A DNA stretch of 64,000 nucleotides from Pseudomonadota bacterium (GTDB lineage Archaea; Thermoplasmatota; SW-10-69-26; JACQPN01; JAJPHT01). How positions within the stretch are numbered: the stretch's first letter is position 1; every line of letters starts with the position of its first letter. Both the position numbers and the translations under genes were made by a program. The stretch covers positions 1 to 64,000 of the forward strand of contig JAJPHT010000022.1 of NCBI GenBank assembly GCA_021325135.1, written 5' to 3'. Of the stretch, positions 1 through 45,002 are shown in pieces. The notes below the pieces were generated by a model. That model was not told where the DNA came from. It saw only the letters and a list, made by a program, of their open reading frames with translations, and ran no database searches.

Positions 1-1272
1 ACCATCGCCGAGGTCGGCCCCAGCAACTGGTACATCAACATCGGCGCCGCCAACGACGTCGGCATGCACGTGAACGACGTCCCGTGGCGGGTCGAGTTCG
101 GCGAGACCTCCAAGTACCTCGCCGTGGGCGACACCGTCCTTCTCAAGATCGTCCACGTGGACGAGATGAAGAAGGCGCAGGTCTCCATGAAGGACCGCCA
201 GTGCCGCAAGCTCACGGGCGGGCTCATCTTCGAGGTCGCGCCCACCAAGGTCCCCCGCATCGTCGGCCGCCAGGGCAGCATGATCACCATGCTGAAGGAC
301 GCGACCAACGTGCGCATCTTCGTCGGCCAGAACGGCAAGATCTGGATGGACGGCGAGCCGGAGGACGTCGCCCTCGCGCTGGAGGCCCTCAAGAAGATCG
401 AGGCCGAGGCGCACACGACGGGCCTCACCGACCGCATGAAGGCCTGGCTCGAGGAGCGCCGCCCCAGCGCGCAGCGCACCCACAAGCAGAGCAGCGACAT
501 GGAGGCCGAGGCCGAGGAGGACCGCGAGATCACGCGCGAGAGGCGCGAGGACCGCCGCGAGCGCCCCGAGCGCCGCCCCCGCAGCTTCGAGGAGCCCGAG
601 GCCGAGGAGCGCCCCCGCCGCCCGCGCTTCGAGGACGAAGGCGCGCCGCGCCGCGGCAGGGCCGAGTCCGAGAAGCACCGCTACCAGCGCGCGCAGGAGG
701 ACGACACCGCCGACGCCGACCTCGAGGAGCGCAAGGGGCGCGACGGCCGCTTCGGCGAGCGCGAGGAGCGCCGCCACGGCGGCCCGCGCCGCGACCGGCC
801 CGAGCGCCGCGAGGAGCGCCCCCGGCGCTTCGACGACGAGCGCCCCGCGCGCAAGCCCCGCTTCGAGGAGGCGGAGGAGCGCCCCGCCCGCCGCTTCGAG
901 GAGGAGCGCCCGGCCCGCAAGCCGCAGTTCGACGACGCGCCGCCGCGCCGCGCGCCCCGCGACGAGCGCCCGCGGCGCTTCGCCGAGGAGGAGCCCGCTC
1001 CGCGCCGCCGGTTCGACGACGAGGAGCCCCGCCGCCCCGCGCGGCCATCCCGCTTCGGAGACGAAGAGCAGGCCGAGCCGCGCCCCGCGCGCCGGCCTCG
1101 TTTCGATGACGACGAGGCCGAGGAGCCTCGCCGCCCCCCGCCCCGCCGCATCGCGGACGAGGACGCGGAGGACGACCGCCCCGCCAGGCGCGAGGGCGAC
1201 GGAGACAGCCGGCGCAGCCGCGGAGGACGCGGGCGCCGGGGTGGACGCGGCCGCAACGGCCGCCAGGAGTGA
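1..1272 (+). CDS. rrp4: Exosome RNA-binding subunit Rrp4 (5'-truncated) with long R/E/D-rich C-terminal extension
   Basis: Frame is open from base 1. S1 domain end plus KH domain (VPRIVGRQGSMI, GQNGKIW). Lies directly upstream of rrp41. Confidence 0.93.
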   Translation, partial: TIAEVGPSNWYINIGAANDVGMHVNDVPWRVEFGETSKYLAVGDTVLLKIVHVDEMKKAQVSMKDRQCRKLTGGLIFEVAPTKVPRIVGRQGSMITMLKDATNVRIFVGQNGKIWMDGEPEDVALALEALKKIEAEAHTTGLTDRMKAWLEERRPSAQRTHKQSSDMEAEAEEDREITRERREDRRERPERRPRSFEEPEAEERPRRPRFEDEGAPRRGRAESEKHRYQRAQEDDTADADLEERKGRDGRFGEREERRHGGPRRDRPERREERPRRFDDERPARKPRFEEAEERPARRFEEERPARKPQFDDAPPRRAPRDERPRRFAEEEPAPRRRFDDEEPRRPARPSRFGDEEQAEPRPARRPRFDDDEAEEPRRPPPRRIADEDAEDDRPARREGDGDSRRSRGGRGRRGGRGRNGRQE

Positions 1273-1277
1273 TTGTC

Positions 1278-2090
1278 ATGGGTGGAAAGAAGCCCGAAGG
1301 AATGGTTCTCATCAACGACCAGGGCCTCCGCATGGACGGACGGCGCCCGGACCAGCTGCGCAACATCAAGATCGAGGCCGGCGTGCTCAAGCAGGCCGAC
1401 GGATCGTGCTATCTCGAGTGGGGCGGCAACAAGGTGATGGCCGCGGTCTACGGGCCGCGCGAGTGCCACCCGCGCCACGACCAGGACCCGACCAAGGCGC
1501 GCGTCCGCGTGCGCTACAACATGGCCGCGTTCTCGGTCTCCGACCGCAAGCGCCCCGGCCCCGACCGGCGCAGCCAGGAGATCAGCAAGATCAGCAGCGA
1601 GGCGCTGGAGCACGTCGTGCTCACGAGCCTCTACCCCAAGAACGCCATCGACGTGTTCATCGAGATCATCGAGGCCGAGGCGGGCACGCGCTGCGCGGGC
1701 CTCACCGCGGCCGCCGTCGCGTGCGCCGACGCCGGCATCCCCATGCGCGGCATGGTCACCGCCGTCGCGGCGGGCAAGGTGGACGGCAAGGTCTGCCTCG
1801 ACCTCAGCCGCGAGGAGGACAACTACGGCGAGACGGACTTCCCCATCGCCATCGTCCCCAAGACGGGCGAGATCGTGCTCCTCCAGCAGGACGGGCACTT
1901 CAGCCCCGACGAGCTCGACCAGGCCCTGGAGATGGCGACCGACGCCGCGATGCGCGTCTACGAGATGCAGAAGGCCGCCCTCCTCGCCCGATATCAGGCG
2001 CAGGCCCAGGCCGAGGACGAGCCCGCCGAGGCCGAGGCCGCCCCCGCGGGCGATCACGACCACGACCACGAGGACCCGGAGGTGGCCTGA
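1278..2090 (+). CDS. rrp41: Exosome catalytic subunit Rrp41 (RNase PH family)
   Basis: RMDGRRPDQLR, ADGSCYLEWGGNKV, AGTRCAG motifs; SD-like GGAGTGAT before ATG 1278. Confidence 0.96.
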   Translation: MGGKKPEGMVLINDQGLRMDGRRPDQLRNIKIEAGVLKQADGSCYLEWGGNKVMAAVYGPRECHPRHDQDPTKARVRVRYNMAAFSVSDRKRPGPDRRSQEISKISSEALEHVVLTSLYPKNAIDVFIEIIEAEAGTRCAGLTAAAVACADAGIPMRGMVTAVAAGKVDGKVCLDLSREEDNYGETDFPIAIVPKTGEIVLLQQDGHFSPDELDQALEMATDAAMRVYEMQKAALLARYQAQAQAEDEPAEAEAAPAGDHDHDHEDPEVA

Positions 2091-2890
2091 TGTCGGACGA
2101 CGTCATCGCCGAGATCAAGCGCGACTACCTCACGCAGCTCGCCCGCGACGGCAAGCGCCAGGACGGCCGCGCCTTCGACGAGTTCCGCCCCGTGAAGATC
2201 CAGACGCGCTGGATCCAGCAGGCGGAGGGCAGCGCGCGCGTCCACCTGGGCGACACGCAGGTCGTCGTCGGCATCAAGATGGCCATGGGCACGCCCTACC
2301 CCGACGCGCCCAACGACGGCACCATGACCACGAGCGCGGAGCTCGTGCCCCTCGCCAGCGCCGACTTCGAGGTCGGGCCGCCCTCGCAGGCGTCCATCGA
2401 GCTGGCCCGCGTCGTCGACCGCGGCATCCGCGAAAGCAAGTCCATCGACTTCGCCAAGCTGTGCATCAAGCCCGGCGAGAAGATCTGGATGAGCTACCTC
2501 GACATGCACGCCGTGGACTACGACGGCAACCTGTTCGACGCGTGCAGCCTGGGCTGCATCGCCGCGCTCATGACCGCCACCGTGCCCCACAGCAAGGTGC
2601 AGATCGAAGGCGTGCCCCCCATGCAGGACGCGCCCATGCCCGTGAAGGAGATCCCCATCATGGTCACGGCGCTCAAGCTGGGCGGCCAGATCCTCTTCGA
2701 CCCCACCGCGCTGGAGGAGAAGGTCGGCGGCCCGCGCCTGTCCGTCTCCTTCGACCGCGCCGGCAACATCCGCGCCATGCAGAAGGGCCTCGGCGGCTCG
2801 TTCACCAAGGACGAGGTCCGCCACATCGTGCGCCGCGGCCGCGAGCTGGCCGACGGCCTGCGCGAGCAGGTCATGAAGCAGGTCGGCTAA
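2090..2890 (+). CDS. rrp42: Exosome subunit Rrp42
   Basis: Starts MSDDVIAEIKRDY; RQDGRAFDEFR, AEGSARVHLGDT, ELARVVDRGIRES, DYDGNLFDA. TGATG overlap with rrp41. Confidence 0.96.
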   Translation: MSDDVIAEIKRDYLTQLARDGKRQDGRAFDEFRPVKIQTRWIQQAEGSARVHLGDTQVVVGIKMAMGTPYPDAPNDGTMTTSAELVPLASADFEVGPPSQASIELARVVDRGIRESKSIDFAKLCIKPGEKIWMSYLDMHAVDYDGNLFDACSLGCIAALMTATVPHSKVQIEGVPPMQDAPMPVKEIPIMVTALKLGGQILFDPTALEEKVGGPRLSVSFDRAGNIRAMQKGLGGSFTKDEVRHIVRRGRELADGLREQVMKQVG

Positions 2891-2921
2891 AGCGGGGGGT
2901 TTGGGGGGCGCAGCCCCCCAA
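2889..2921 (+). repeat. REP-like GC hairpin element, family A, copy 1
   Basis: AAAGCGGGGGGTTTGGGGGGCGCAGCCCCCCAA; related copies near 50593, 50664, 50731 and 59889. Confidence 0.7.
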
Positions 2922-3012
2922 CGTCTGTTCTTCGTGGTTTTTCCTTCCCCGCGCATAGGCGATGCCTTGAAACTCGCCCGTCGGATTGGAAGGGCTCCGA
3001 GGCTGACCCGCC

Positions 3013-4149
3013 ATGCACCTACGGACCCCCACCCTGCGCGCGATCCTCGCGCTGCTCGTGATCGCATTCCCCGCCGCCGCGTCGATGTCGCTGGCCGCTT
3101 CCCCCGCGGCCACCCTCGCCAGCGCGGGCGAGTTCACGGTCAATCCCGACGCCATGTGCAAGCTGCGCGAAAGCTGGGTCGACCACCTGCTCGCGACCTA
3201 CCCGCAGGGCACCTGGGCGCCGATGAAGATGGTGCTCTCGGACAGCGACCTCGCCCTCATGGGCCTCCCCCCGCGGGACGTCCTCCTCGCGCAGCGCTAC
3301 GCCGAGCCCACGGCCCTCTTCCCCGACGGCAGCACGCAGACGGTGAGCGTCTCCGCGCTGGCGGCCTACGCAGGGACAGGCTGCATCGGCATCCGCCCCG
3401 GCGCGTGGCTCCTCCTGCTGTCGCGCGACGAGATCGCCCTCTGCAGCATGGCGCACGTCTACGGCTCTCCGGGAAGCTACGAGATCAGCACGGCCGGCCA
3501 CTGCGGCAAGACGGGCGACGTCGCCACGGTCATCGCCGCCGTGGGCAACTTCGACCGCCCCTTCTTCGGCCTGCCCGCCGTCTCCGTGCCCATCCTCCTG
3601 GACTTCGGCACGTTCGTCAAGAGCACGGGCGACGCCGGCATCGGCAAGGACTGGGCGCTCATCGGCATCAACGCGCCCGACCAGCCCCTCGTCTCGCCCA
3701 CCATGTGCTTCTGGGGCGGCCCCATCGGCATGTACCGCGACACCGGCGCCACCGTGGCCGCGACGCTCCTGGACCGCAACCTCGTCAGCGGACCCACGCT
3801 GAGCGCCGACCCGTTCCTCGTCCAGGGCATCGTCCACTACGGCCACGGCGCCGGCATCGGCACCGACGGCACGCCGCGCGCCGGCACCGCGTTCTACTGG
3901 ACGTCGACCACGATGATCTGGGAAGGCGCCATCACGCCGGGCGACTCCGGCTCGGCGTCCAACACCCTCACCGGCGACTCCATCGGCGCGGACCGCCAGG
4001 CCGCGGGCATCAACACGCACATCTTCGTGGACCCCTCGCTCAAGACAGGGATCGGCTACCTCGCCAGCACCCGCGCCACGCTGGTCACCGCGACCCTCGC
4101 CAACGGGCAGCTCGTGCCGTACCCTGCGCCCGTGCCGGGGGCGCCGTGA
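3013..4149 (+). CDS. Secreted chymotrypsin-like (S1) serine protease
   Basis: Signal peptide; catalytic triad motifs TAGHC, DWALI and GDSGS. Confidence 0.85.
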   Translation: MHLRTPTLRAILALLVIAFPAAASMSLAASPAATLASAGEFTVNPDAMCKLRESWVDHLLATYPQGTWAPMKMVLSDSDLALMGLPPRDVLLAQRYAEPTALFPDGSTQTVSVSALAAYAGTGCIGIRPGAWLLLLSRDEIALCSMAHVYGSPGSYEISTAGHCGKTGDVATVIAAVGNFDRPFFGLPAVSVPILLDFGTFVKSTGDAGIGKDWALIGINAPDQPLVSPTMCFWGGPIGMYRDTGATVAATLLDRNLVSGPTLSADPFLVQGIVHYGHGAGIGTDGTPRAGTAFYWTSTTMIWEGAITPGDSGSASNTLTGDSIGADRQAAGINTHIFVDPSLKTGIGYLASTRATLVTATLANGQLVPYPAPVPGAP

Positions 4150-4249
4150 GGTGCCGCCACACGCCCCAAATCGTTAAGTAGGGAAGCCGTCTTGCCAACG
4201 CCTGTTCCAGGACTCCCAGCGGGTCCTGTCCTCGTTGGAGGAACCGTCC

Positions 4250-4546
4250 ATGTCGCTCCGCACCAAGAAGGTCAAGTCCGTCGGTCGCTTCGGCCCCCGC
4301 TACGGCGTCAGCATCCGCCGCCGCATCCGCGAGGTCGAGGCCCGCCAGAAGGCCTGGCACTCCTGCCCCGCCTGCGCGGCGCCCCGCGTCAAGCGCACCG
4401 ACACCGGCGTCTGGGAGTGCCGCAAGTGCGGCCACAAGTTCGCCGGCGGCGCGTACCTGCCGCACACGCCCGCGTTCAACGCCAACGAGCGCATCCTCCG
4501 CGAGCTCTCCGAGGGCAAGGTCCCCACCGCGCCCGCCGAGGAGTGA
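4250..4546 (+). CDS. rpl37ae: 50S ribosomal protein L37Ae (eL43)
   Basis: RTKKVKSVGRFGPRYG, CPAC...WECRKC, GGAY; SD GGAGG. Confidence 0.97.
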   Translation: MSLRTKKVKSVGRFGPRYGVSIRRRIREVEARQKAWHSCPACAAPRVKRTDTGVWECRKCGHKFAGGAYLPHTPAFNANERILRELSEGKVPTAPAEE

Positions 4547-4689
4547 AGACCGTGGACTACCGCTGCGGCAAGTGCAAGCGCAACGTGGAGTTCGACACGA
4601 ACAACATCGGCATGCGCTGCCCCTACTGCGGCTCCAAGGTCTTCTACAAGGAGCGCCCCACCATCGCCAAGCGGGTCCACTCCCGCTGA
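4543..4689 (+). CDS. rpoP: RNA polymerase subunit P (Rpo12)
   Basis: YRCGKC...RCPYCGSKVFYKERP zinc ribbon; conserved position after rpl37ae. Start may instead be GTG 4552. Confidence 0.93.
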   Translation: MKTVDYRCGKCKRNVEFDTNNIGMRCPYCGSKVFYKERPTIAKRVHSR

Positions 4690-4709
4690 TATCAAACCGT
4701 GGTGAGCCC

Positions 4710-5006
4710 CTGCGCCACCACGCCGACCTCTTTTTCGAGCTTCCCGACCCCACAGCGGACGCCATCGCTCGCGCCCTCTCCCCCGAAGCCCACTCCGCCG
4801 CGCTGGACGAACCTGCGGGCCCGTCCGCGCCGCGCAGCAGAGCCGCGTCGGAGGTCCCCAAGACGCGCGCCGCCATCGCCCGCGAGCCCCACGGCATCCG
4901 CGTCCGCCTCGACGCCGACGACCTTGCCTCCCTGCGCGCCGCCGTCAACTCCTACCTCCGCTGGATCGACGCCGCCCAGAAGGCCGCCCGCCTGGGAACG
5001 GCGTAG
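4710..5006 (+). CDS. pcc1: KEOPS complex subunit Pcc1 (probable CTG start)
   Basis: IARALSPE...ADDLASLRAAVNSYLRWI signature; conserved position after rpoP. Confidence 0.88.
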   Translation: MRHHADLFFELPDPTADAIARALSPEAHSAALDEPAGPSAPRSRAASEVPKTRAAIAREPHGIRVRLDADDLASLRAAVNSYLRWIDAAQKAARLGTA

Positions 5007-5008
5007 GC

Positions 5009-5323
5009 TTACACCGCGCGGCCCGCGGCCCGCAACGCCGCGATGGCCTCTGCTTCGGCGACGCCGTGGTCGGTCAACTCGTGCTCCACGCCGAAGCGCG
5101 TCACCACCGGCCGCACCAGACCCAGCCCCACCAACGAGCGCTCGCTCGCGTAGTCCGGAAGCTCGCCCTGCAACGCCGCGAAGACGCGGCCCCGACGCAG
5201 CCCCGTCTCCCTTGCCACGTCGGGAGGCGCCAGCCGCCCGCGGGCCAAGTACGCAAGGAGGCACGCCTCGCGGTTTCTGCTGTGGCGAAGGCTCGTCCGG
5301 GTGGCGTCGCGCAGAGGGAGCAT
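5009..5323 (-). CDS. EarA/DUF1495-like winged-helix regulator, paralog 1
   Basis: SLRHSRNR...LQGELPDYASERSLVGLGLV...ELTDHG matches the EarA-family pattern SLxxSxxR...G...Y..E.SLVxLGLV...LT..G. Confidence 0.7.
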   Translation of the reverse strand: MLPLRDATRTSLRHSRNREACLLAYLARGRLAPPDVARETGLRRGRVFAALQGELPDYASERSLVGLGLVRPVVTRFGVEHELTDHGVAEAEAIAALRAAGRAV

Positions 5324-5393
5324 GGCCAATCGTAACGCGCTTCATGACGAGAGGATTGTCCGGGAATCACGACACGGAGGGGGCCGAAAGTGG

Positions 5394-5523
5394 GCCGCCT
5401 GGGGCCGGGCGTGCACGGGTGGGCACGGGTGTGCACGGGCGCGACCGGCCGGAGCCAGGCTGGTGCGGGTGTGTCCGCCCGTGCCCACCTGGCCACGCCC
5501 GTGCACGCCCGGCCCCAGGCGGC
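5394..5523. repeat. 130-bp palindrome with 26-bp perfect outer arms, built from 10-bp phased GTGCACGGGY-like units
   Basis: 5394-5419 is the exact reverse complement of 5498-5523. Confidence 0.85.
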
Positions 5524-5593
5524 TCCGCCCGTGCCCGCGTGCGTCCGCCCGCCCCCCGCAACGTTCTTCCCCCTCCCCATCTTCGCCCCCTTC

Positions 5594-5944
5594 ATGGCCG
5601 GCCAGCTCCCTCCGCAGATCCAGAACCAGCTTGCGCAGCTGCAGGAGCTTCAGCAGCAGGCGCAGGTGGTCGTCTCCCAGAGGCAGCAGGTGGAGCTGCA
5701 GGTGCGGGAGATCGAGCGCACGCTGGAGGAGCTGGCGAAGGTGCCGCAGGAGGCTCCGTTGTATCGCAGCGTGGGGAGCATCCTGGTCCGCGTGCAGGAT
5801 CGCGAGGGGCTCGTGGCGGAGCTGACGGACCAGAAGGAGACGCTGACGGTGCGTCTGGAGTCGGCGAAGCGGCAGGAGACGCGGTTGCGGGAGCGCGTGA
5901 CGGCGTTGCAGACGGAGCTTCAGGCCGCGTTGGGCGGCCGTTGA
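5594..5944 (+). CDS. pfdB: Prefoldin subunit beta
   Basis: LPPQIQNQLAQLQELQQQ...LYRSVGSILV; coiled coils; superoperon position. Confidence 0.95.
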   Translation: MAGQLPPQIQNQLAQLQELQQQAQVVVSQRQQVELQVREIERTLEELAKVPQEAPLYRSVGSILVRVQDREGLVAELTDQKETLTVRLESAKRQETRLRERVTALQTELQAALGGR

Positions 5945-6120
5945 GCGGCGCAGTGGGCTGCTCGCCTGTCTGCTGGCCATCGTCCATCGTCGTGCTTGGC
6001 ATCGTCCTTTCAGCGCGTCACCGGAAGGGCTTTCACGGCTTGTCGGGACGGGGGTGCGTTGCCCCCGGTTTTCCCCTGGAAAATCGCGCGCCGCAGCCGC
6101 GTGGCGCGCGATTCCGAGGC

Positions 6121-6130
6121 CTTTTATAGG
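6121..6130 (+). promoter_or_regulatory. TATA box of the surface-protein operon
   Basis: CTTTTATAGG about 60 bp upstream of ATG 6188 in a GC-rich background. Confidence 0.6.
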
Positions 6131-6187
6131 GCCACCCGAATCCCCGCGGGAATCCGCCGGCCGTTGCCGCCGGGAGAGTGCCTCCGA

Positions 6188-8653
6188 ATGCCCAACGGCC
6201 GCTCCGCTTGGATCACGCTGCTGGCGATTCTTCTCCTGGTTCCCCTGTGGCCTTCGGCCTCGGCGGCGGCCCCTGCGCTCTCGGGGTCGGTGCAGGCGAC
6301 GGGCGGGCAGGTCGTGACCGACCTGGGTCTGGATCCTTCGGGCCAGTTCGCGGCGGCGGTGGTGAGCTCGGGCGCGGCGTCGGGGCTTCCCGGCTGCCAG
6401 CTGGGCCTTCCTTGCGGCGGCGGGCTGGGCTCGTCGCACCAGGACGTGTTCGCGTGCGACTTCGGCGTCTCGGGGCAGGGCTGCCGCGGCGCGCCCCACA
6501 CCAAGCCGGCGACGACGTCGACCAACGCGCAGCAGGCGGTGGACGTGGTGTCGTTCACGCCGCTGGGCGCGCAGGACCTCGTGGAGTATTTCGGCGTGGC
6601 GGGGCCGGGCGACGTGGTGAGCCTCTGGTCGGCGTCCCAGGCGACGCCCCTCTTCGAGTTCGCGTTGGGCTCGGGCGGCGGCGTCTCGACGGCGCCCCTG
6701 GCGACCAACGTCTCGGTGAAGCCCGACGGCACGCGCGTGCTCTTCGGCACCCTCACCACGGGAGGCTCCGGCGGCGCGCTGCGCTACTACGCGCCCGACG
6801 CCAGCGGCGCCAACTGGGGCGAGAAGTGGTCCCTGGACCTCACCGACAGCCAGGGCGCGCCGACGCACGCGACGGACGTCGCGTGGGCGCGCGGGGGCGC
6901 GCTCGTCGTGCTGGGCACGCCCTCGGGCATCGAGACGTTCGTGCCTGGCGACCTGCGCCCCACGAGCGACGCGATGCACCTCTTCGACACCAGCAGCGCG
7001 GTGAACCGGGTCGCGGTGTCCGCGACCGGCGCCTCCGTCGCGGCCGCGACCAACGGCTACACCTTCTTCGCGCCCGTGGACCCCGCCACCAACAAGGTGG
7101 TCGTCCCGGCGTACAGCTTCAACAACCAGGGCAACGTGCAGGCCCTGGCCATGACGCAGGACGGCGAGCGCTTCGCGTCCGCCTCGGGCTCGCGCATCTA
7201 CTTCTTCCACGCCTCGCACGACTCGCACATCGCCATCCCGGATGGCAGCTACGACGCCGGCGCGCCCGTCACCGACCTCTCCTACGACGGCACGGGCCGC
7301 CTCCTGGTCGCGGCGGCGGGCGGCAACGTGCTGGGCTTCTCGCCGGGCGTCGCGGCCCCCGTGTGGACGCTGGACGCGGTGGCGGCGGGCCTCGACGCGC
7401 CCCTCGTGCGCGCGCGCGTCTCGGACGGCTGGTACGACGGCTCGTACCACGCGCAGGCGGACGCCGTGCGCGTCGCCGTGGCCGGGCAGACGAAGATCGC
7501 GGCCTTCGACGTGCTCTCGCGCGTGAACGCCACGCTCACCGCGCCGCAGGGCGCCTCCCTGGTGCCCGGCGTCGCCACGCCCCTCTCGCTCACGCTCACC
7601 AACGCGGGCAGCCTCACGGACAACTTCACCTTCGTCGTCAACCCGCCCTCGGGCAACGGCACCGCGTGGGGCGTCCAGAGCGCGGGCATGCTGCGCCTCG
7701 ACCCGGGCGCCACCGGGTACGCCAACCTCACCGTCACGCCCCCCGCCGGCCAGGCGCCGGGCACCTACGCCGTCACCGTGGAGGTCCACGCCGAGGGGCA
7801 CCACGGCCGGCCCGCGTGCGGCGTGTCGCCCGACGCCATCGCGTGCCCCACGGCGAACCTGACGCTGGCGCGCAGTGTCGTCCTGTCGGTGAGCGGCCCC
7901 GACGACAGGCGCCTGCTCAAGCAGGGCGCCGAGGACACCATTCCGATCACGGTGACCAACCTCGGGAACGCCGAGGGCGTCGTCAACCTGAGCGCCACGC
8001 AGACGCTGACGCGCGGCAGCAATTGGGCGCTGCGCTTCGCTCCCGGCCCCCAGGTTCGAGTGCCCTCGGGCGGAAGCGTCAGCCTCAACGTGACGCTGGA
8101 CGTGCCCAACGACGCGGTGAGCGGCGACAAGAACGTCGTCGCGGTCATCGCCAAGGAGGGCGAGTCCGTCACGGCGTCCAAGACGTTCGTCGCCTACGTG
8201 GACGCGCAGTTCGGCTCCGAGCTCAACGCCACCAACAGCAGCCTGGAGCTGGCGCCCGGCGAGCAGAGGAGCGTCACGCTCAACGTGCGCAACACCGGCA
8301 ACACCGAGGACGTCTACAACGTGACCTCCACCCTCTCGCCCGCGGGCGCGGAGAACGACTGGCGCGTCACCATCTCGGTGCCCCAGGTGAGCGTCCCCAT
8401 CGGCCAGGTCCGGCCCGTCACCATCACCCTCAAGCCCCTCGTGGCCGAGCCCCGCGACGCCACCGTCACGCTCACCGCCACCTCGCAGGGGGATCCCGCC
8501 AACGGGCAGTCCAGCTTCGTCATCGCGCTCGCGGCCAAGCCCGTCGTCACGACGCCCCCCGCGAAGCGCGGCATCCCCGGCCCCGAGCCCGCGCTGGCGC
8601 TGGGCTTCGTGGCGCTGGCCGCCCTCGCGCGCCGCCTGGGGGCCCGGCGATGA
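6188..8653 (+). CDS. Secreted surface protein: beta-propeller + Ig-like (NEW3/COG1470-like) repeats + PGF-CTERM-like tail (821 aa)
   Basis: Signal peptide; blade-like repeats (VSVKPDGTRV, AMTQDGERF, LSYDGTGRLL); NxGNxxD Ig repeats; IPGPE-TM-RR tail. Confidence 0.8.
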   Translation: MPNGRSAWITLLAILLLVPLWPSASAAAPALSGSVQATGGQVVTDLGLDPSGQFAAAVVSSGAASGLPGCQLGLPCGGGLGSSHQDVFACDFGVSGQGCRGAPHTKPATTSTNAQQAVDVVSFTPLGAQDLVEYFGVAGPGDVVSLWSASQATPLFEFALGSGGGVSTAPLATNVSVKPDGTRVLFGTLTTGGSGGALRYYAPDASGANWGEKWSLDLTDSQGAPTHATDVAWARGGALVVLGTPSGIETFVPGDLRPTSDAMHLFDTSSAVNRVAVSATGASVAAATNGYTFFAPVDPATNKVVVPAYSFNNQGNVQALAMTQDGERFASASGSRIYFFHASHDSHIAIPDGSYDAGAPVTDLSYDGTGRLLVAAAGGNVLGFSPGVAAPVWTLDAVAAGLDAPLVRARVSDGWYDGSYHAQADAVRVAVAGQTKIAAFDVLSRVNATLTAPQGASLVPGVATPLSLTLTNAGSLTDNFTFVVNPPSGNGTAWGVQSAGMLRLDPGATGYANLTVTPPAGQAPGTYAVTVEVHAEGHHGRPACGVSPDAIACPTANLTLARSVVLSVSGPDDRRLLKQGAEDTIPITVTNLGNAEGVVNLSATQTLTRGSNWALRFAPGPQVRVPSGGSVSLNVTLDVPNDAVSGDKNVVAVIAKEGESVTASKTFVAYVDAQFGSELNATNSSLELAPGEQRSVTLNVRNTGNTEDVYNVTSTLSPAGAENDWRVTISVPQVSVPIGQVRPVTITLKPLVAEPRDATVTLTATSQGDPANGQSSFVIALAAKPVVTTPPAKRGIPGPEPALALGFVALAALARRLGARR

Positions 8654-11112
8654 GCGCGCGCGCCCTCGCGGCCGTGGGCCTGGCGCTCCTCCTCGCGCTG
8701 CCCCTCGTGCCCCTGGCGGCGGCCGACCCTCCCGTCGCCGAGTCGTGGTCCCCCTACGACACCCTCTCGACCACCACGGCGCTGGCCTTCGCGCGCCAGG
8801 GCGTCACCATCGCGGCCGCGCTGGGCCCGGCGCCCATCAACTCCACGGGCCCCTCGTGCCCCACGCCCTCCGTGAGCTGCGTGCCCGGCACGACGCAGAC
8901 CAAGACCGACGTCCCCGACCTCTCCATCCTCCAGAGCGACCGCGGCTGGGCGCACAACGGCACGGGCAACGTCGCCGTCAACGGCCAGTCCTCCCCCGAG
9001 GGGCGCTCCCTGGTCGCGGTGTCCGCCGACGGCCACGCGGTGGCGAGCGTCGGCATCGACCGCACCACGCACACGCCGCTCCCCGGCGCGCCCTCGCCCA
9101 CCGGCCCCACGCCCACCCTCCCCGGCGGCGTGCCCCAGACGCTCAAGCTCTACGTGGACGAGGTCCCCGTGGGCGCCAACTTCTCCGCGGGCCCCGTCTC
9201 CGCCATGACCGTGGAGATTGCGGGCGTCCGCGCGGCGGGCCTCGCGCTCTCCGACGACGGCTCGCGCGCCGCCGTGCTCGTGGACGACGGGCTGGGCAAC
9301 CTCACGCTCCTCGCCTACAACGTCGCGCCGCCCAACCTCAACCCGGCGTTCACCTACGCGTGGGCCGGCAAGCCCGAGGCGCTCGCGGCGGACGCCACGC
9401 TCAGCCGCATCCTCGTGGGCGGCGACCTGCTCAACGCCAACAACGAGACGCGCGCCAGCCTCATCGTCGTGGACTACGCCACCGGCAAGCCCCTCTCCGC
9501 GTACAGCGAGGCGGCCAACGGAAGCGCCGTCACCGGCCTGGCCGTCACGCCCGATGGCGCCCTCGCCGCCATGGGCACCAACCAGGGCCGCCTCGTCACG
9601 CTCAACGGCCGCGACGCCAGCTCGCCCCAGGCCTACCAGGCCGCGGGCCCCGCCACCAACGTCTCCCACGTCGCGCTCTCGCCCGACGGCACGCACGTCG
9701 CGCTCGCGGCGGAGGGCACCATCCACGCGTACCGCCTCTCGGGCCTCCTCCCCTCGCCCCTCTGGACCGCCACCGAGGACGCGGCCGTGAACTCCCTCTC
9801 CTACAACGCCACGGGCGGCATCCTCGTCGCCAGCTTCTCCAGCGGCGCCGCCTCGGGCGCCTACGCCTTCGGCGACGGGAGCGCCACGCCCATCTGGTCG
9901 CTCCCCGGAGAGATCTTCGATATCAAGGTCAACGACGCCGGCACCGAGATCGCGTTCCGCCAGGGGCACGTCGTCGACGCGCAGCGCCTCCCGCGCGGCT
10001 TCGCCTTCGAGCAGGCCGGGGGCGGCAAGGCCTCCGCGGTGCGCCCGCTGCGCGCCGGCGCCTCCGCCGTCTTCGACCTCGTCGTGCGCGCCACCGGCGC
10101 CGCGCCCGAGACCGTGGCGCTCAGCGCGGCCGCGGACCCCAACCTCGCCGTGAGCTTCGACCCGCCCGTCGTCACGGCTCTCCCCGGGACCAACGCGCAC
10201 GTCGCGGTCACGCTCAACTCGACGCCCGCCTTCTCGGGCACGCACACGGTGAACCTCACCGCGACGGGGCTCTCCACCGCCGGCACGGACCACGCCACCG
10301 TCTCCGTCTCCTTCGAGGGCGTCGCCAACGTCACCTTCCGCGTCAACCAGACCGAGTACCAGGTGACCCCCGGCGCCCCCGCCGAGGCGCTGCTCACCGT
10401 CTTCAACGGCGGCACCAGCAGCGCGGCCGTCGGCCTGCGCTACTCGCAGCAGCCCAGCGTCGGCCCCCAGTGGGGCCTCGCCGTCGACCCCACGAGCTTC
10501 CTCGTGCCGCAGGGCTCCATCACCACCGTCCGCGTCACCGTCACGCCCCCCGCGAGCACGGCCAACGGCACCAACGACGCCGTCTCCTTCATCCTCGAAG
10601 GGCCCAACGTCTCGGACGCCGTGACGCTCCACTTCCGCGTGAACCCGCACCTGGGCGTCGACGTGGGCGCCTTGGGCCGCGTGAAGTTCGTGGAGCCCGG
10701 CAAGGTCGCGTTCTTCAACGTCACCGTCAGCAACACGGGCTCGATCTCGCGCGCGTTCAGCGCGTTCTACGACACGACGCCCGCCAACGGCAAGCCGTGG
10801 GCCGTCGACATGGCGACCGACCCCTTTCGCCTGGAGCCGGGCGCCTCGCGCACCGTGCCCGTGAAGGTCTTCGCGCCCGCCGACGCCACGCCCGACGACC
10901 ACGTCGCCGTGCTCGTCCGCGCCCGCAGCGTGCCCGAGGAGGCCAACGAGACGTTCGTCGAGGCGAACGTCACCCTCTTCGCCAACGCCGTCCAGCCCCA
11001 GCCGACCTCGACGACCACCTCGTCGGGCGGCAACGTCCCCTTCCCCGGCATCCTCGCGCTCGCCGCGTGCCTCGCGCTCGCGACGCTCGCCCGCAGGAGG
11101 CGCGCCCCATGA
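8650..11112 (+). CDS. Paralogous secreted beta-propeller + Ig-like surface protein with CTERM-like tail (820 aa)
   Basis: ATGA overlap with the upstream gene; signal peptide; ALSDDGSR, VTPDGAL, LSPDGTH blades; Thr linker then VPFPG-TM-RRRR. Confidence 0.8.
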   Translation: MSARALAAVGLALLLALPLVPLAAADPPVAESWSPYDTLSTTTALAFARQGVTIAAALGPAPINSTGPSCPTPSVSCVPGTTQTKTDVPDLSILQSDRGWAHNGTGNVAVNGQSSPEGRSLVAVSADGHAVASVGIDRTTHTPLPGAPSPTGPTPTLPGGVPQTLKLYVDEVPVGANFSAGPVSAMTVEIAGVRAAGLALSDDGSRAAVLVDDGLGNLTLLAYNVAPPNLNPAFTYAWAGKPEALAADATLSRILVGGDLLNANNETRASLIVVDYATGKPLSAYSEAANGSAVTGLAVTPDGALAAMGTNQGRLVTLNGRDASSPQAYQAAGPATNVSHVALSPDGTHVALAAEGTIHAYRLSGLLPSPLWTATEDAAVNSLSYNATGGILVASFSSGAASGAYAFGDGSATPIWSLPGEIFDIKVNDAGTEIAFRQGHVVDAQRLPRGFAFEQAGGGKASAVRPLRAGASAVFDLVVRATGAAPETVALSAAADPNLAVSFDPPVVTALPGTNAHVAVTLNSTPAFSGTHTVNLTATGLSTAGTDHATVSVSFEGVANVTFRVNQTEYQVTPGAPAEALLTVFNGGTSSAAVGLRYSQQPSVGPQWGLAVDPTSFLVPQGSITTVRVTVTPPASTANGTNDAVSFILEGPNVSDAVTLHFRVNPHLGVDVGALGRVKFVEPGKVAFFNVTVSNTGSISRAFSAFYDTTPANGKPWAVDMATDPFRLEPGASRTVPVKVFAPADATPDDHVAVLVRARSVPEEANETFVEANVTLFANAVQPQPTSTTTSSGGNVPFPGILALAACLALATLARRRRAP

Positions 11113-11132
11113 GTCCCACCAGGAGCCAAGCC

Positions 11133-14100
11133 ATGCCCGCCAACGCGAAGACCCTGACCACGCTGGCGCTCGCCGCCATCATGCTCGTGCCCACGCTCCT
11201 TGCGGCGATCCCCGGGGCCGCGGCGGACAACGTCCCCACGCTCCCCGGCACCAGCGCCCCCGTGGAGTGGACGCCCCTCGCGGGCTTCAACCAGACCCTC
11301 TGGCTCCAGTACCAGGACGCGGGCGCCCAGCCCGACTGCACGAAGGCCGGCATCCTCACGCCCTCCGGCCCCGGGGCCCCCGTCACGCCCGGCGGCACGC
11401 GCGCGCAGTGCCCCTACGGCACCGGCGCCGCGAGCCAGGCCGGCGGCTCGGACAGCGCCGTCTTCTCCTATGGCGGCGCGTTCGTGCGCGACTGGAACAT
11501 GACCGGACAGTCCATCCTCGCGCACGTCTCCGGCAGCTTCCAGCCCAGCCAGGTCCTCACCGTCACCGTCTCCGCCGGCTCCATGAGCCTCACCGGGACC
11601 CACACCACGGGCGCGAGCACGAGCCCCACGACCACGAGCAGCTTCGACGTGGCCCTCGGGCCCAGCGGCGCCGACACGCGCGTCGCGTTCGCCAAGGGGA
11701 GCACCTTCAAGGTCACCATCTCGTCGAGCGTCACGCAGGTCCCCGTGCCCGGCGGGCTCCCCGGCGGCGCGGCCACGCCCTCGCAGTTCAGCATCGACGA
11801 CACGCAGTCGTACGTCACCATCGCGTCGGACGACGCCTACCGCGCGGCCACCTGGACCGGCGACGCCAACGCGTCCGTCATCAACACGTTCCGCCCGATG
11901 GACAACAACAGCACCTCGTCCGCGCTGCTCAAGGGCTTCTTCGCCATGCAGAGCGCGTGGGGCTCCGACGACCTCGGCGGCGTCAGCGCGCCCACCTTCC
12001 GCGTCTTCCAGGACGACCACCCCTTCCAGCCCTTCCCCGGCGCCATCACGCAGACCGGCGGCAGCCCCGTCACCTCGCTCTCCCGCCCCGACCAGGGCAT
12101 CGTGACGTGGGGCTTCCCCCAGGGCGCGCTGGACTACCGCGGCTGGCCCTCCGCGGCGCTGCGCCTCGAGGTCTCCACGACCTACTTCGGCCAGGCCAAC
12201 GCGCACGTCTCGCAGGGCACGAGCCACCCCTTCGCCATCAACGCGCAGGGCGTGCGCCTCGCCGCCTTCGAGGACGACACCACGACGCCCCACCTCGTGG
12301 AGAGCGTCTCCCACTCGGCCCCCTCCGGCGGCGCCACCACCTTCCTGCTCACGGCCAACAACACCGGCGGCGCGCCCGACTCGTTCAAGGTGCAGGTCGC
12401 CTTCGTGCCCGTCGCCGGCTCGCCCCAGACGGGCTGGTCCGCGACGCTGGGCGGCCCCCAGCTCGTGGGCGACACCGTCTCGCTGGACCCCGGCGAGTCC
12501 AAGATCCTCACCCTCACCGTGGGCATGCCCTTCGCGTCCGCGGGCTCGGGCACGTTCCGCGTCACCGCCTCCAGCGTGAGCGACCCCGCGCTGGCCAGCG
12601 AGCCCGTCATCCTCATCGCGTCCATCGGCGCGCCCCAGGGGCACGACGTGGGCGTCATCGCGCCCCATGATATCACCATGGACGCGGGCCGCGACGTGGA
12701 CGTCCCCCTCTACGTGTGGAACCGCGGCGGAACCCCCGCCAACGCCACGCTCTCGCTGGCCTCCAGCGACTCGGGCGGCTGGACCACGGGCCTCCTCTCC
12801 AACGCGCTGACGCTGCGCTCCCTCCAGGTGTCCAACGTCCCCGCGGGCGGCATCGCCGTCGCCACGCTGCGCGTCCACGGCCCCGACCAGAGCCAGACGC
12901 AGCAGCTGGACGTCACGCTCAACGTCACCAACAAGGACGTCGCGGGCATCGCCATGGACCGCGTGCTGCGCCTCCACCTCACCACGGTGGGCGGCTTCCG
13001 CGTGCAGGTCCTCGACAAGATCAACGGCCTGCCGGTCGGCGCCGAGGTCGATCCCTGCTCCCGCACCGCGGCCCCTCCCACGCCTCCCGACACGAACTGC
13101 CTCCAGCAGAACGCGCCCGGGGCATCGTTCATCCAAGAGGACGGCGTGGACGGCATCCTCCTGCGCGCGTGGATCACCAACACCGGCCGCGTCACCGAGG
13201 ACGCCAAGGTGAGCCTTGACCCCAAGCCCGTCTTCCCCGGCTGCGCCGACGGCGTGTTCGACCACACCGTCAACGACGCGGGCTTCCGCCTCAAGACGCG
13301 CAGCGCCGACGGCGCGCTCCAGGACTTCGACGGCAACCTCCTCGGGGTCAAGCCCGGCGAGACCTACGAGGCCTACGTCTTCATCGCCGTGAACCGCGAC
13401 CAGGGCACGTGCGGCAGCAACGACATCATGCAGTTCACCCTGGGCGCCGTGGGCGCCAAGACCGGCGCCATCGGCCAGTACACGGCCCAGGTGCGCGCCA
13501 CCGACGGCGAGGACTCCACCAACGTGCTCCTCCAGCCCGTCGTCCGCGCCGGCAGCACCACCAACCCCTCCGTCCCCCTCGTGGACCTCTCCAACGCGGA
13601 GAAGACCGTCGTCACGCAGGGCGTGGGCGTCGGCAAGAACGCCACCTTCTACGTGCGCATGGTGAACGGCGCCTCGTGGGGCAGCTACAACGACTCCAAC
13701 GGCCACCTCGTCCCCGCGACGGCGGCGCTCACCATCATCAACCCGCGCGCCCCCGACGGATGGAACGTCAGCGTGCGCCCCGTGACCAGCGTCGTCGACC
13801 AGGCGGCGAACCCCTTCCGCGCCTCCTACGAGCTTGGCAACGTGGACCCCACGACGCAGGGCGCCGACGGGCTGCGCCGCCTCGCGCTCAACGACGTGGA
13901 GCTGCAGGTCAACGTCACCGCGCCCGACGGCAAGAACCACACCGCGCTGGCCAACGACCAGGACCAGATCACGCTGGAGGCCACCATGGGCACCTCGCGC
14001 AGCACGCTCTCCATCACGGCCGTCATCGGCGACCAGGCCGCGGTGAACCTGCACGCGGAGCCGCGCGTCCTCGCCCACCCCGTGGACGGAGGCGCCACCG

Positions 14101-44597: not shown

Positions 44598-45002
44598 ATG
44601 CTTCCCCTCCTCGCCATCGGCCGCTCCATGCGACGCAGCCACGCCCGCCGCGCCGTCCTCGTCGCCCTCGACCGGCTCGGGCAGGCCGGGCTCGCGCCGC
44701 TCGCGGAGCAGGCGGGCCTCGCGCCCGAGCGCGTGCGCGCGGTCCTCCACGGCCGTCTGCCGGGCTTCCTGCCGGAGCTGTCGCTCCTCGCGCTGGAGCT
44801 CGTCCGCCAGGAAGGAGAGGAGTACGCCATCGCGCCGCGCGGGCGGCTCGTCGTGAGGTCGCTGGCGCGCGGCGGGCTCAAGCTCCTGCTGGAGGGGCCG
44901 GACGCCGCGCTGCGCGCGCCGCTGGAAGCCGCGCACGAAGAACGATGCCCCGCGTGCGGGCAGCGCGTGCCGCCGCGCGACCGCAGGCCGCAGAGGCGTT
45001 AG
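44598..45002 (+). CDS. EarA/DUF1495-like winged-helix regulator, paralog 2
   Basis: RSMRRSHARRAVL...LHGRLPGFLPELSLLALELV; C-terminal CPACG. Confidence 0.62.
   Translation: MLPLLAIGRSMRRSHARRAVLVALDRLGQAGLAPLAEQAGLAPERVRAVLHGRLPGFLPELSLLALELVRQEGEEYAIAPRGRLVVRSLARGGLKLLLEGPDAALRAPLEAAHEERCPACGQRVPPRDRRPQRR

What the first reader, a model, noticed from the sequence alone, without database searches (positions are those of the whole stretch)
463..1272. Exosome Rrp4 carries a ~270-aa charge-patterned disordered tail ending in an RGG box, like an RNase E scaffold
Seen: after the KH domain the frame continues for about 270 aa of mostly R/E/D/P. It has 11 Phe-centred units of the form basic-patch-F-acidic-patch (RRFDDE, PRFEEA, RRFEEE and similar) and ends RSRGGRGRRGGRGR, stopping exactly at rrp41. 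Known: typical archaeal Rrp4 ends shortly after KH and sits as up to three copies on the exosome cap. Blocky-charge disordered tails drive bacterial RNase E condensates (BR-bodies). Inference: this exosome may carry a multivalent tail that forms RNA-decay condensates or scaffolds partners such as Sm, the beta-CASP nuclease or helicases, i.e. an archaeal degradosome/P-body analogue.
Basis: partly seen in the sequence, partly recalled or inferred. Interest (0 to 1): 0.82.

Follow-up and report, generated by a model that had tools for sequence, protein, structure and literature searches.

The report
Arginine-rich floppy arm on archaeal exosome
In a group of uncultured soil archaea, the lid protein (Rrp4) of the RNA-degrading exosome carries a real 270-residue floppy, arginine-rich arm; close relatives put a similar arm on other exosome subunits, so it is probably a built-in RNA-catching device, and whether it forms droplets is untested.

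Summary
Rrp4 of this soil Thermoplasmatota archaeon continues 269 aa past KH (R28/E19/P12/D10%, 11 Phe, 10 in basic-F-acidic context, p<1e-4) and ends in an Arg/Gly box overlapping the rrp41 ribosome-binding site. It is no artefact: re-assembled contigs bridge it, codon bias is coding, and all four congeneric genomes have 142-419-aa versions. New here: among ~3,760 predicted proteins the three longest Arg-rich mixed-charge regions are in Rrp4, DnaG and fibrillarin, all of one RNA network. In the two family members with short acidic Rrp4 tails, an Arg/Gly tail sits on Csl4 (same terminal box) or Rrp41. The RNase E analogy is only partial: net charge is held near zero, patterning is fine-grained (2-4 residues, ~11-14-aa period), not 10-30-aa blocks, and aRNase J, aCPSF1 and Sm have no tails. 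Closer analogues are the E. coli CsdA IDRs and eukaryotic Arg-rich mixed-charge domains. Rrp4 tails recur across archaea (28% of representatives >50 aa, mostly acidic). Best reading: a selected, multivalent RNA-capture/cohesion arm (0.6); condensate formation plausible but unshown (0.3). I found no paper on it. New variant of a known machine.

The parts
1..462 (+). Rrp4 folded core (end of S1 and the KH domain with its GxxG loop). The gene is cut by the contig start; the 67 N-terminal codons lie on contig C11 after psmA and SBDS, overlapping this contig by 105 identical bases.
   Evidence: Pfam KH_6/KH_1; C11 overlap; full-length congener passes NF003181 and matches T. acidophilum Rrp4 8XIE, E 1e-49
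463..1269 (+). 269-aa disordered Arg-rich mixed-charge tail (FCR 0.59, NCPR +0.007, R/(R+K) 0.94)
637..747 (+). Block conserved with the closest relative (76% identity over 37 aa) holding an acidic-[AV]DL element also seen in DnaG linkers; candidate short linear motif, weak
562..1125 (+). Array of 11 Phe-centred units, consensus (P/R)-R-R-F-(E/D)-(E/D)-E, median spacing 14 aa, most often 11; grown by degenerate in-frame tandem duplication (periods 30, 33, 48, 66 nt)
1210..1254 (+). Terminal Arg/Gly box (two RGG here; consensus RRRRGGRGRG in homologues), the only clearly net-positive stretch
1266..1272 (+). GGAGTGA: Rrp4 stop codon overlapping a Shine-Dalgarno-like element for rrp41, kept in G001, G002 and G003
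   Evidence: sequence; function inferred
1278..2090 (+). Rrp41, catalytic subunit; phosphate-binding and acidic motifs match T. acidophilum Rrp41; short acidic/His tail
2090..2890 (+). Rrp42, no tail
2901..2921 (+). Terminator-like hairpin plus T-run after rrp42 (about one expected by chance)

Best explanation
The tail is a selected, intrinsically disordered, arginine-rich mixed-charge arm on an otherwise ordinary nine-subunit exosome. Up to three copies hang from the rim of the cap. The net-positive terminal Arg/Gly box, and more weakly the Arg-Arg-Phe units, bind RNA without sequence specificity. The charge-balanced body acts as a long soluble tether whose Arg and Phe stickers also allow weak cohesion with similar regions on DnaG and fibrillarin/Nop5. 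The effect would be a larger capture radius and longer residence of RNA at the S1/KH pore, possibly useful for structured RNA in a 72% GC genome. Shown: reality, disorder prediction, composition, protein-level constraint, proteome-wide restriction to this RNA network, and relocation of the arm between subunits. Inferred: RNA binding, effect on decay or tailing, and cohesion.
For: Present in 4/4 congeners (247-419 aa) and about 15 further close homologues, nearly all ending in the same box. G000 vs G002 tail: pN 0.22 < pS 0.35; in three unambiguous blocks 30 of 59 differences are at third positions. NCPR stays at 0.00 to +0.05 in all 14 full tails measured despite 3-fold length change. The longest Arg-rich mixed-charge stretches among 3,757 predicted proteins are Rrp4 281, DnaG 191 and fibrillarin 105 aa; DnaG is an exosome subunit bound through its CTD (PMC4227792) and Nop5 binds the exosome via Rrp4 (PMC7667871). 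In family f1, G007 has a 49-aa acidic Rrp4 tail but a 113-aa Csl4 tail ending in the same box and a 202-aa Nop5 tail; G008 has a 59-aa acidic Rrp4 tail but a 129-aa Rrp41 tail ending in RGG repeats. GC bias alone does not explain it: proteome R/(R+K) is 0.72 and many other basic disordered regions in the genome are Lys-rich. The similar CsdA IDRs (R29/G30/E11/F6%) drive RNA-mediated condensation in E. coli (10.64898/2026.09.17.752289).
Against: No expression, binding or activity data exist. A net-neutral tail with 29% acidic residues is a poor RNA binder over most of its length. Length and unit number vary widely, and G011, G013, G014 and the sister order manage with short Rrp4 tails. One member inside the genus clade (P0013) has a Lys/Ala tail instead. 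Tail alignments are ambiguous, so pN/pS is rough. The subunit-swap pattern rests on two genomes, was noticed after the fact, and kin are not independent.
Confidence: 0.6

Rival explanations
1. Condensate model (extends the best explanation rather than excluding it): Rrp4, DnaG, fibrillarin and Nop5 tails together drive an RNA-dependent phase-separated body for RNA decay or rRNA processing, an archaeal analogue of BR-bodies or the nucleolus.
For: The four proteins that carry such regions belong to one network (aRNase J pulls down DnaG, fibrillarin, Nop5, Rrp4, Rrp41/42 in Pyrococcus, 10.1101/699629). High-Arg mixed-charge domains condense and co-assemble heterotypically (10.1101/771592). The exosome is oligomeric, so valence is multiplied. 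Archaeal fibrillarin normally lacks a GAR domain (PMC7290794), yet 5/5 genus members have a 70-135-aa R/G-rich tail.
Against: Net-neutral Arg domains showed only modest condensation in that study. FCR 0.59 is below its 0.7 search cut-off, 12% Pro favours expanded chains, and long-range blockiness is absent. Fibrillarin tails are mostly confined to the genus while Rrp4 and DnaG tails are wider.
Confidence: 0.3
2. Protein scaffold: the Phe-centred units or the acidic-[AV]DL element are docking motifs for a folded partner (nuclease, helicase, Sm, ribosome), like RNase E microdomains.
For: Strict basic-F-acidic grammar in 95 Phe sites of 10 tails; islands conserved between G000 and G002; two short motifs shared between Rrp4 tails and DnaG linkers within the genus.
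Against: Unit number ranges from 0 to 18 among close homologues (P0009 has none), flanks differ between subclades, and outside the genus the Phe context changes to GGF. No partner co-varies. The Atlas feature search gave no usable hit.
Confidence: 0.15
3. Tolerated expansion: slippage in GC-rich DNA lengthens permissive termini and linkers; selection only keeps them soluble and neutral.
For: Degenerate in-frame tandem repeats; wide length range; tails of unrelated acidic, Lys-rich or Pro-rich make-up recur on Rrp4 across archaea, so this terminus is permissive.
Against: Restriction to one RNA network in a 3,757-protein proteome, retention of the terminal box down to about 50% core identity (L062), the same box on Csl4 of G007, and the cost of 250-420 extra residues on a housekeeping protein.
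Confidence: 0.12
4. Regulatory shield: the tails act as an entropic brush or autoinhibitory gate that limits access to the cap until RNA or a partner displaces them.
For: Acidic tails of 60-230 aa on Methanobacteriales Rrp4 would suit an RNA-mimic or repelling role; this tail has acidic patches of -5 to -6 per 10 residues.
Against: Overall neutrality and a conserved basic terminal box fit capture better than exclusion.
Confidence: 0.1
5. Assembly artefact or read-through of non-coding DNA.
For: MAG contig edge; other frames are also open in this GC-rich stretch.
Against: One re-assembled contig covers 124-1269 with no difference and another bridges the stop (run X1, possibly the source sample); a second study's contig covers 1157-1611 with no difference. 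Independent genomes carry homologous tails; no Rfam match.
Confidence: 0.01

Closest known systems
Archaeal Rrp4 (T. acidophilum 8XIE, A. fulgidus 2BA0, S. solfataricus 2JE6; NCBIfam NF003181)
   Same: NTD-S1-KH core, GxxG loop, psmA-SBDS-rrp4-rrp41-rrp42 order, complete exosome with Csl4 and DnaG
   Different: Solved proteins are 229-251 aa and end after KH; this one adds 269 aa of Arg-rich mixed-charge sequence
E. coli CsdA/DeaD IDR1 and IDR2 (10.64898/2026.09.17.752289)
   Same: Arg/Asp/Glu-rich low-complexity tail with spaced Phe on an RNA-processing enzyme; local similarity to two order-level Rrp4 tails exceeds shuffles (p about 0.01; 0.06 for this tail)
   Different: Much shorter (49 and 76 aa), Gly-rich and net positive (+0.12); on a helicase; analogy, not homology
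Eukaryotic Arg-enriched mixed-charge domains (U1-70K, CPSF6, FIP1L1; 10.1101/771592)
   Same: Balanced charge, Arg far over Lys, well-mixed pattern, fused to folded RNA-binding domains
   Different: Lower charge density (0.59), Pro- and Phe-containing units, no RS phosphoregulation, archaeal
Alphaproteobacterial RNase E C-terminal domain and BR-bodies (10.1101/272286)
   Same: Long disordered tail with Arg-rich sites on an oligomeric RNA-decay machine
   Different: No homology; tail is on the 3'-5' exonuclease cap, not an endonuclease; charge blocks are short; no known partner microdomains; no RNase E/G found in this genome
Fibrillarin GAR domain (PMC7290794)
   Same: RG/RGG-rich disordered region; the genus also has an R/G-rich tail on fibrillarin itself
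   Different: GAR is N-terminal and Gly-dominated; here the RG box is only the last ~15-25 residues of a C-terminal tail

Membership tests
Archaeal Rrp4 | NTD-S1-KH architecture above family cut-off | tested here: met
   Congener P0001 scores 219.6 vs cut-off 200; KH in window; N-terminus on C11
Archaeal Rrp4 | Encoded with rrp41 and rrp42 in the exosome superoperon; complete exosome in genome | tested here: met
Archaeal Rrp4 | Assembles as cap on the Rrp41/42 ring | not testable with these tools
   inferred from homology only
RNase E-type BR-body scaffold | Homology to RNase E/G | tested here: not met
   No PF10150 match in G000 (94% complete); tail vs E. coli AR1/AR2 no better than shuffles
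RNase E-type BR-body scaffold | Alternating charge blocks of 10-30 residues | tested here: not met
   3 of 27 runs reach 10 windows; charge autocorrelation turns negative at lag 4-5; SCD not below shuffles, whereas the E. coli RNase E CTD gives z -5.8
RNase E-type BR-body scaffold | Disordered tail with Arg-rich RNA-binding sites | tested here: inconclusive
   Disorder predicted and Arg-rich box present; binding untested
RNase E-type BR-body scaffold | Conserved microdomains that dock degradosome partners | tested here: inconclusive
   Genus-level islands only; no partner identified
RNase E-type BR-body scaffold | RNA-dependent phase separation | not testable with these tools
   needs experiment
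Arg-enriched mixed-charge domain (Greig et al.) | More than 60 aa with positive:negative ratio between 1:0.7 and 1:1.3 | tested here: met
   269 aa, 80 positive to 78 negative
Arg-enriched mixed-charge domain (Greig et al.) | High Arg/Lys ratio | tested here: met
   75 Arg to 5 Lys
Arg-enriched mixed-charge domain (Greig et al.) | Fraction of charged residues about 0.7 | tested here: not met
   0.59 here, 0.47-0.67 in homologues over the whole tail; sub-windows not tested
RGG/RG motif | Closely spaced RGG/RG repeats (definition from memory) | tested here: met
   Two RGG three residues apart at nt 1210-1254; most homologues keep an Arg run plus one RGG and RG repeats

The most novel reading that the evidence does not exclude
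This Thermoplasmatota lineage has independently equipped its exosome (Rrp4, or Csl4/Rrp41, plus DnaG) and its box C/D methylation complex (fibrillarin, Nop5) with interchangeable Arg-rich disordered arms that co-assemble with RNA into a membrane-less RNA-processing compartment, an archaeal counterpart of BR-bodies or the nucleolus.
Probability: 0.25. Interest if true: 0.85.

Novelty: new variant of a known kind. Interest (0 to 1): 0.55.

Why it matters
All structurally studied archaeal exosomes have tail-less caps, and my searches found no paper on disordered Rrp4 tails or on archaeal RNA-decay condensates (limited library). Here one lineage concentrates its longest Arg-rich disordered regions on the exosome and the box C/D RNP and moves the arm between subunits, which points to selection on the complex rather than on one protein. 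It gives a cheap, fully reconstitutable test (five small genes in E. coli) of whether archaea organise RNA turnover or rRNA processing by condensation, which bears on how nucleolar and P-body-type organisation arose. If only RNA capture is shown, it is still a new way of building cofactor function into the exosome.

Tried and rejected
No RNA holder was listed among public runs, which says nothing about expression. Single-sequence AlphaFold was uninformative (core pLDDT about 30); only the alignment-based model was used. ESM Atlas feature search of the tail gave no usable hit. PF10447 missed Csl4 in 38 of 41 genomes and would have wrongly suggested that the tail replaces Csl4; NF034126 found it in 37 of 41, so that idea was rejected. 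The tail DNA is not a dispersed repeat or mobile element: blastn found only self-matches and low-identity, composition-driven hits such as the DnaG linker (output cut to 60 rows). No Rfam family in 1-6000. My first Nop5 comparison had a frame error and was redone; several Rrp42 rows are mis-assigned low-score hits and were ignored. The Rrp4 tree is a quick tree with many open nodes, so I do not claim a single origin or an order of gains and losses. No complex prediction was run because no specific partner is claimed. No phase-separation predictor was available. The GTDB class name is not given by the tools; from memory it may be SW-10-69-26, unverified.

Full report
What is there. The window starts inside rrp4 at the edge of contig C24 of a 3.77-Mb, 71.6% GC genome. 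Its nearest named relatives are soil and groundwater Thermoplasmatota MAGs. The first 67 codons lie at the end of contig C11, after psmA and SBDS, with a 105-base identical overlap. Downstream are rrp41 (1278-2090), rrp42 (2090-2890), an unrelated gene, then rpl37ae, rpoP, pcc1 and prefoldin beta. This is the usual archaeal exosome superoperon. Rrp41 keeps the motifs of the T. acidophilum enzyme, and Csl4 and DnaG are encoded elsewhere.

The observation. After KH the frame runs 269 more residues to TGA 1270-1272: R 28, E 19, P 12, D 10%, 11 Phe, almost no aliphatic residues. Ten Phe sit between a basic and an acidic patch (2.8 expected; 0 of 10,000 shuffles). With an alignment AlphaFold models residues 1-150 at pLDDT 83-93 and the tail as low-confidence coil. 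The stop overlaps GGAGTGA, a Shine-Dalgarno-like element five bases before the rrp41 ATG.

Is it real? Open frames are cheap at this GC content, so I looked for other evidence. GC3 is 0.95 in the tail and 0.99 in the core. One re-assembled contig covers 124-1269 without a difference and another crosses the stop; that run may be the source sample, but a second study's contig covers 1157-1611 without a difference. All four congeneric genomes have tails of 247-419 aa with the same Phe units and terminal box. Against the closest relative the tail has pN 0.22 and pS 0.35 (core 0.045 and 0.20); in three unambiguous blocks 30 of 59 differences are at third codon positions. The tail is therefore constrained as protein, though far less than the core, and grows by degenerate in-frame duplication.

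Distribution. A search for long Rrp4 returned about 17 further close homologues with 110-420-aa Arg-rich tails, most ending in an Arg run followed by GGRGRG. The box is also at the end of a 281-aa tail in a distant Thermoplasmata MAG (L062, about 50% core identity). The sister order in the class has tails of 0-8 aa. Across 137 representatives at 50% identity the median tail is 10 aa, but 38 exceed 50 aa and 20 exceed 100 aa, a few of them chimeric. Most are acidic (60-230 aa in Methanobacteriales), some Lys- or Pro-rich, and some are 50-130-aa R/G/F tails. So a tail on Rrp4 is a recurring trait; a long, neutral, Arg-dominated tail with Phe units and a terminal box is largely confined to this lineage among the sequences I saw.

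Charge grammar. FCR is 0.59 and NCPR +0.007. In 13 other tails NCPR is 0.00 to +0.05 although length varies threefold (kin are not independent, and a neutral repeat unit would expand neutrally). Kappa is 0.21 against 0.13 in shuffles (z 3.1), but ranges 0.11-0.23 in homologues, and SCD is never blockier than shuffles, unlike the E. coli RNase E CTD (z -5.8). With a 10-residue window only 3 of 27 charged runs reach 10 windows, whereas Caulobacter RNase E has blocks of 10-30 residues (10.1101/272286). The tail is better described as an Arg-enriched mixed-charge domain (10.1101/771592) with Phe stickers, close in make-up to the CsdA IDRs that drive RNA-mediated condensation in E. coli (10.64898/2026.09.17.752289).

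A complex-level trait. I called 3,757 genes in the genome with my own codon model (87% coding; it may miss genes) and ranked Arg-rich mixed-charge stretches. The top three are Rrp4 (281 aa), DnaG (191 aa, between TOPRIM and the exosome-binding CTD) and fibrillarin (105 aa, C-terminal); the next ones look like coiled coils. aRNase J, aCPSF1, Csl4, Sm and RNase R have none. DnaG is an exosome subunit (PMC4227792), Nop5 binds the exosome through Rrp4 in Sulfolobus (PMC7667871), and these proteins co-purify with aRNase J in Pyrococcus (10.1101/699629). DnaG linkers are Arg-rich and 136-232 aa where complete in the family and in G013/G014 of the order; fibrillarin tails of 70-135 aa are in 5/5 genus members. 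The two family members whose Rrp4 tail is short and acidic carry the arm elsewhere: G007 on Csl4 (113 aa, same terminal box) and Nop5 (202 aa), G008 on Rrp41 (129 aa, RGG end). This complementarity rests on two genomes and was seen after the fact (chance about 1 in 30 ignoring kinship). GC bias does not suffice: proteome R/(R+K) is 0.72 and many other basic disordered regions in this genome are Lys-rich.

How it most likely works. Shown: a constrained, disordered, neutral, Arg-rich arm with a conserved basic tip, confined to one RNA network and portable between subunits. Inferred: three arms (each roughly 5-6 nm radius of gyration by standard coil scaling, from memory) widen the capture range of the cap; the tip binds RNA non-specifically; Arg and Phe stickers give weak cohesion with DnaG and fibrillarin/Nop5 regions. 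I put RNA capture/cohesion at 0.6, true condensates at 0.3 (compatible with the former), motif-based scaffolding at 0.15, tolerated expansion at 0.12 and a shielding role at 0.1.

Novelty. Five literature searches found no description of such tails or of archaeal RNA-decay condensates, within a library that lacks most subscription journals. Earlier notes of this scan report analogous arms on Iainarchaeum Rrp4, Poseidoniales Csl4 and Heimdallarchaeum DnaG; I saw the Csl4 RGG-CxxC-RRM architecture myself in G025 and G036 but did not check the others. This suggests repeated, convergent addition of RNA-binding arms to the archaeal exosome, which makes this case less unique but the theme more general. 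Verdict: real, new variant of a known machine, function untested; interest 0.55.

Noticed in passing
G000 C42:92033-93745 (L111:2034-3743): DnaG carries a ~185-aa Arg/Glu-rich insertion without Phe between TOPRIM and CTD, with a genus-conserved island (acidic run, VDL, TSPIEGVDM).
   Followed up: yes
G000 C42:5794-7883 (L112:795-2881): Fibrillarin has a 90-aa R/G/P/D/F C-terminal tail ending in a basic Trp motif in all five genus members; Nop5 ends in a G/P/K/R-rich tail.
   Followed up: partly
L218 (G007 Csl4), L156 (G007 Nop5), L035 (G008 Rrp41): Arg/Gly tails on other exosome or box C/D subunits in genomes whose Rrp4 tail is short and acidic.
   Followed up: yes
window 3013-4149 +: A 378-aa secreted-looking protein without Pfam match, with motifs resembling a trypsin-like serine protease (TAGHC, GDSGS), interrupts the superoperon between rrp42 and rpl37ae.
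   Followed up: no
window 6000-16094 +: Three large tandem secreted proteins (about 790-885, 820 and 1650 aa) with beta-rich repeats and C-terminal PGP/PFP-type sorting-like tails; possible surface-layer or adhesin cluster.
   Followed up: no
window 5009-5329 -, 44598-45002 +; G000 C6:48893-49273: Small paralogous winged-helix-like genes sharing a 'SL..LGLV' segment recur next to housekeeping clusters.
   Followed up: no
P0070, P0089-P0135 (Methanobrevibacter-like) and P0061-P0088 (Methanobacterium-like): Methanobacteriales Rrp4 has strongly acidic tails of 55-230 aa (NCPR down to -0.5), in Methanobrevibacter with a conserved KPxLQxF island and basic end.
   Followed up: partly
L217 (G025) and L118 (G036): Csl4 fused to RGG, a CxxC knuckle, an RRM and a GAR tail (242-258 aa extension).
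   Followed up: partly
G000 C13:7979-10651; C17, C40, C27, C5, C34: The genome has RNase R as well as the exosome, and five DEAD-box helicases, none with a long Arg-rich tail; no RNase E/G found.
   Followed up: partly
P0013: One Rrp4 inside the genus clade has a 159-aa Lys/Ala histone-H1-like tail in place of the Arg/Glu tail.
   Followed up: no
G000 C49:113306-115354: PIN-ATPase-KH protein (PINA-like) with an internal charged low-complexity insertion.
   Followed up: no
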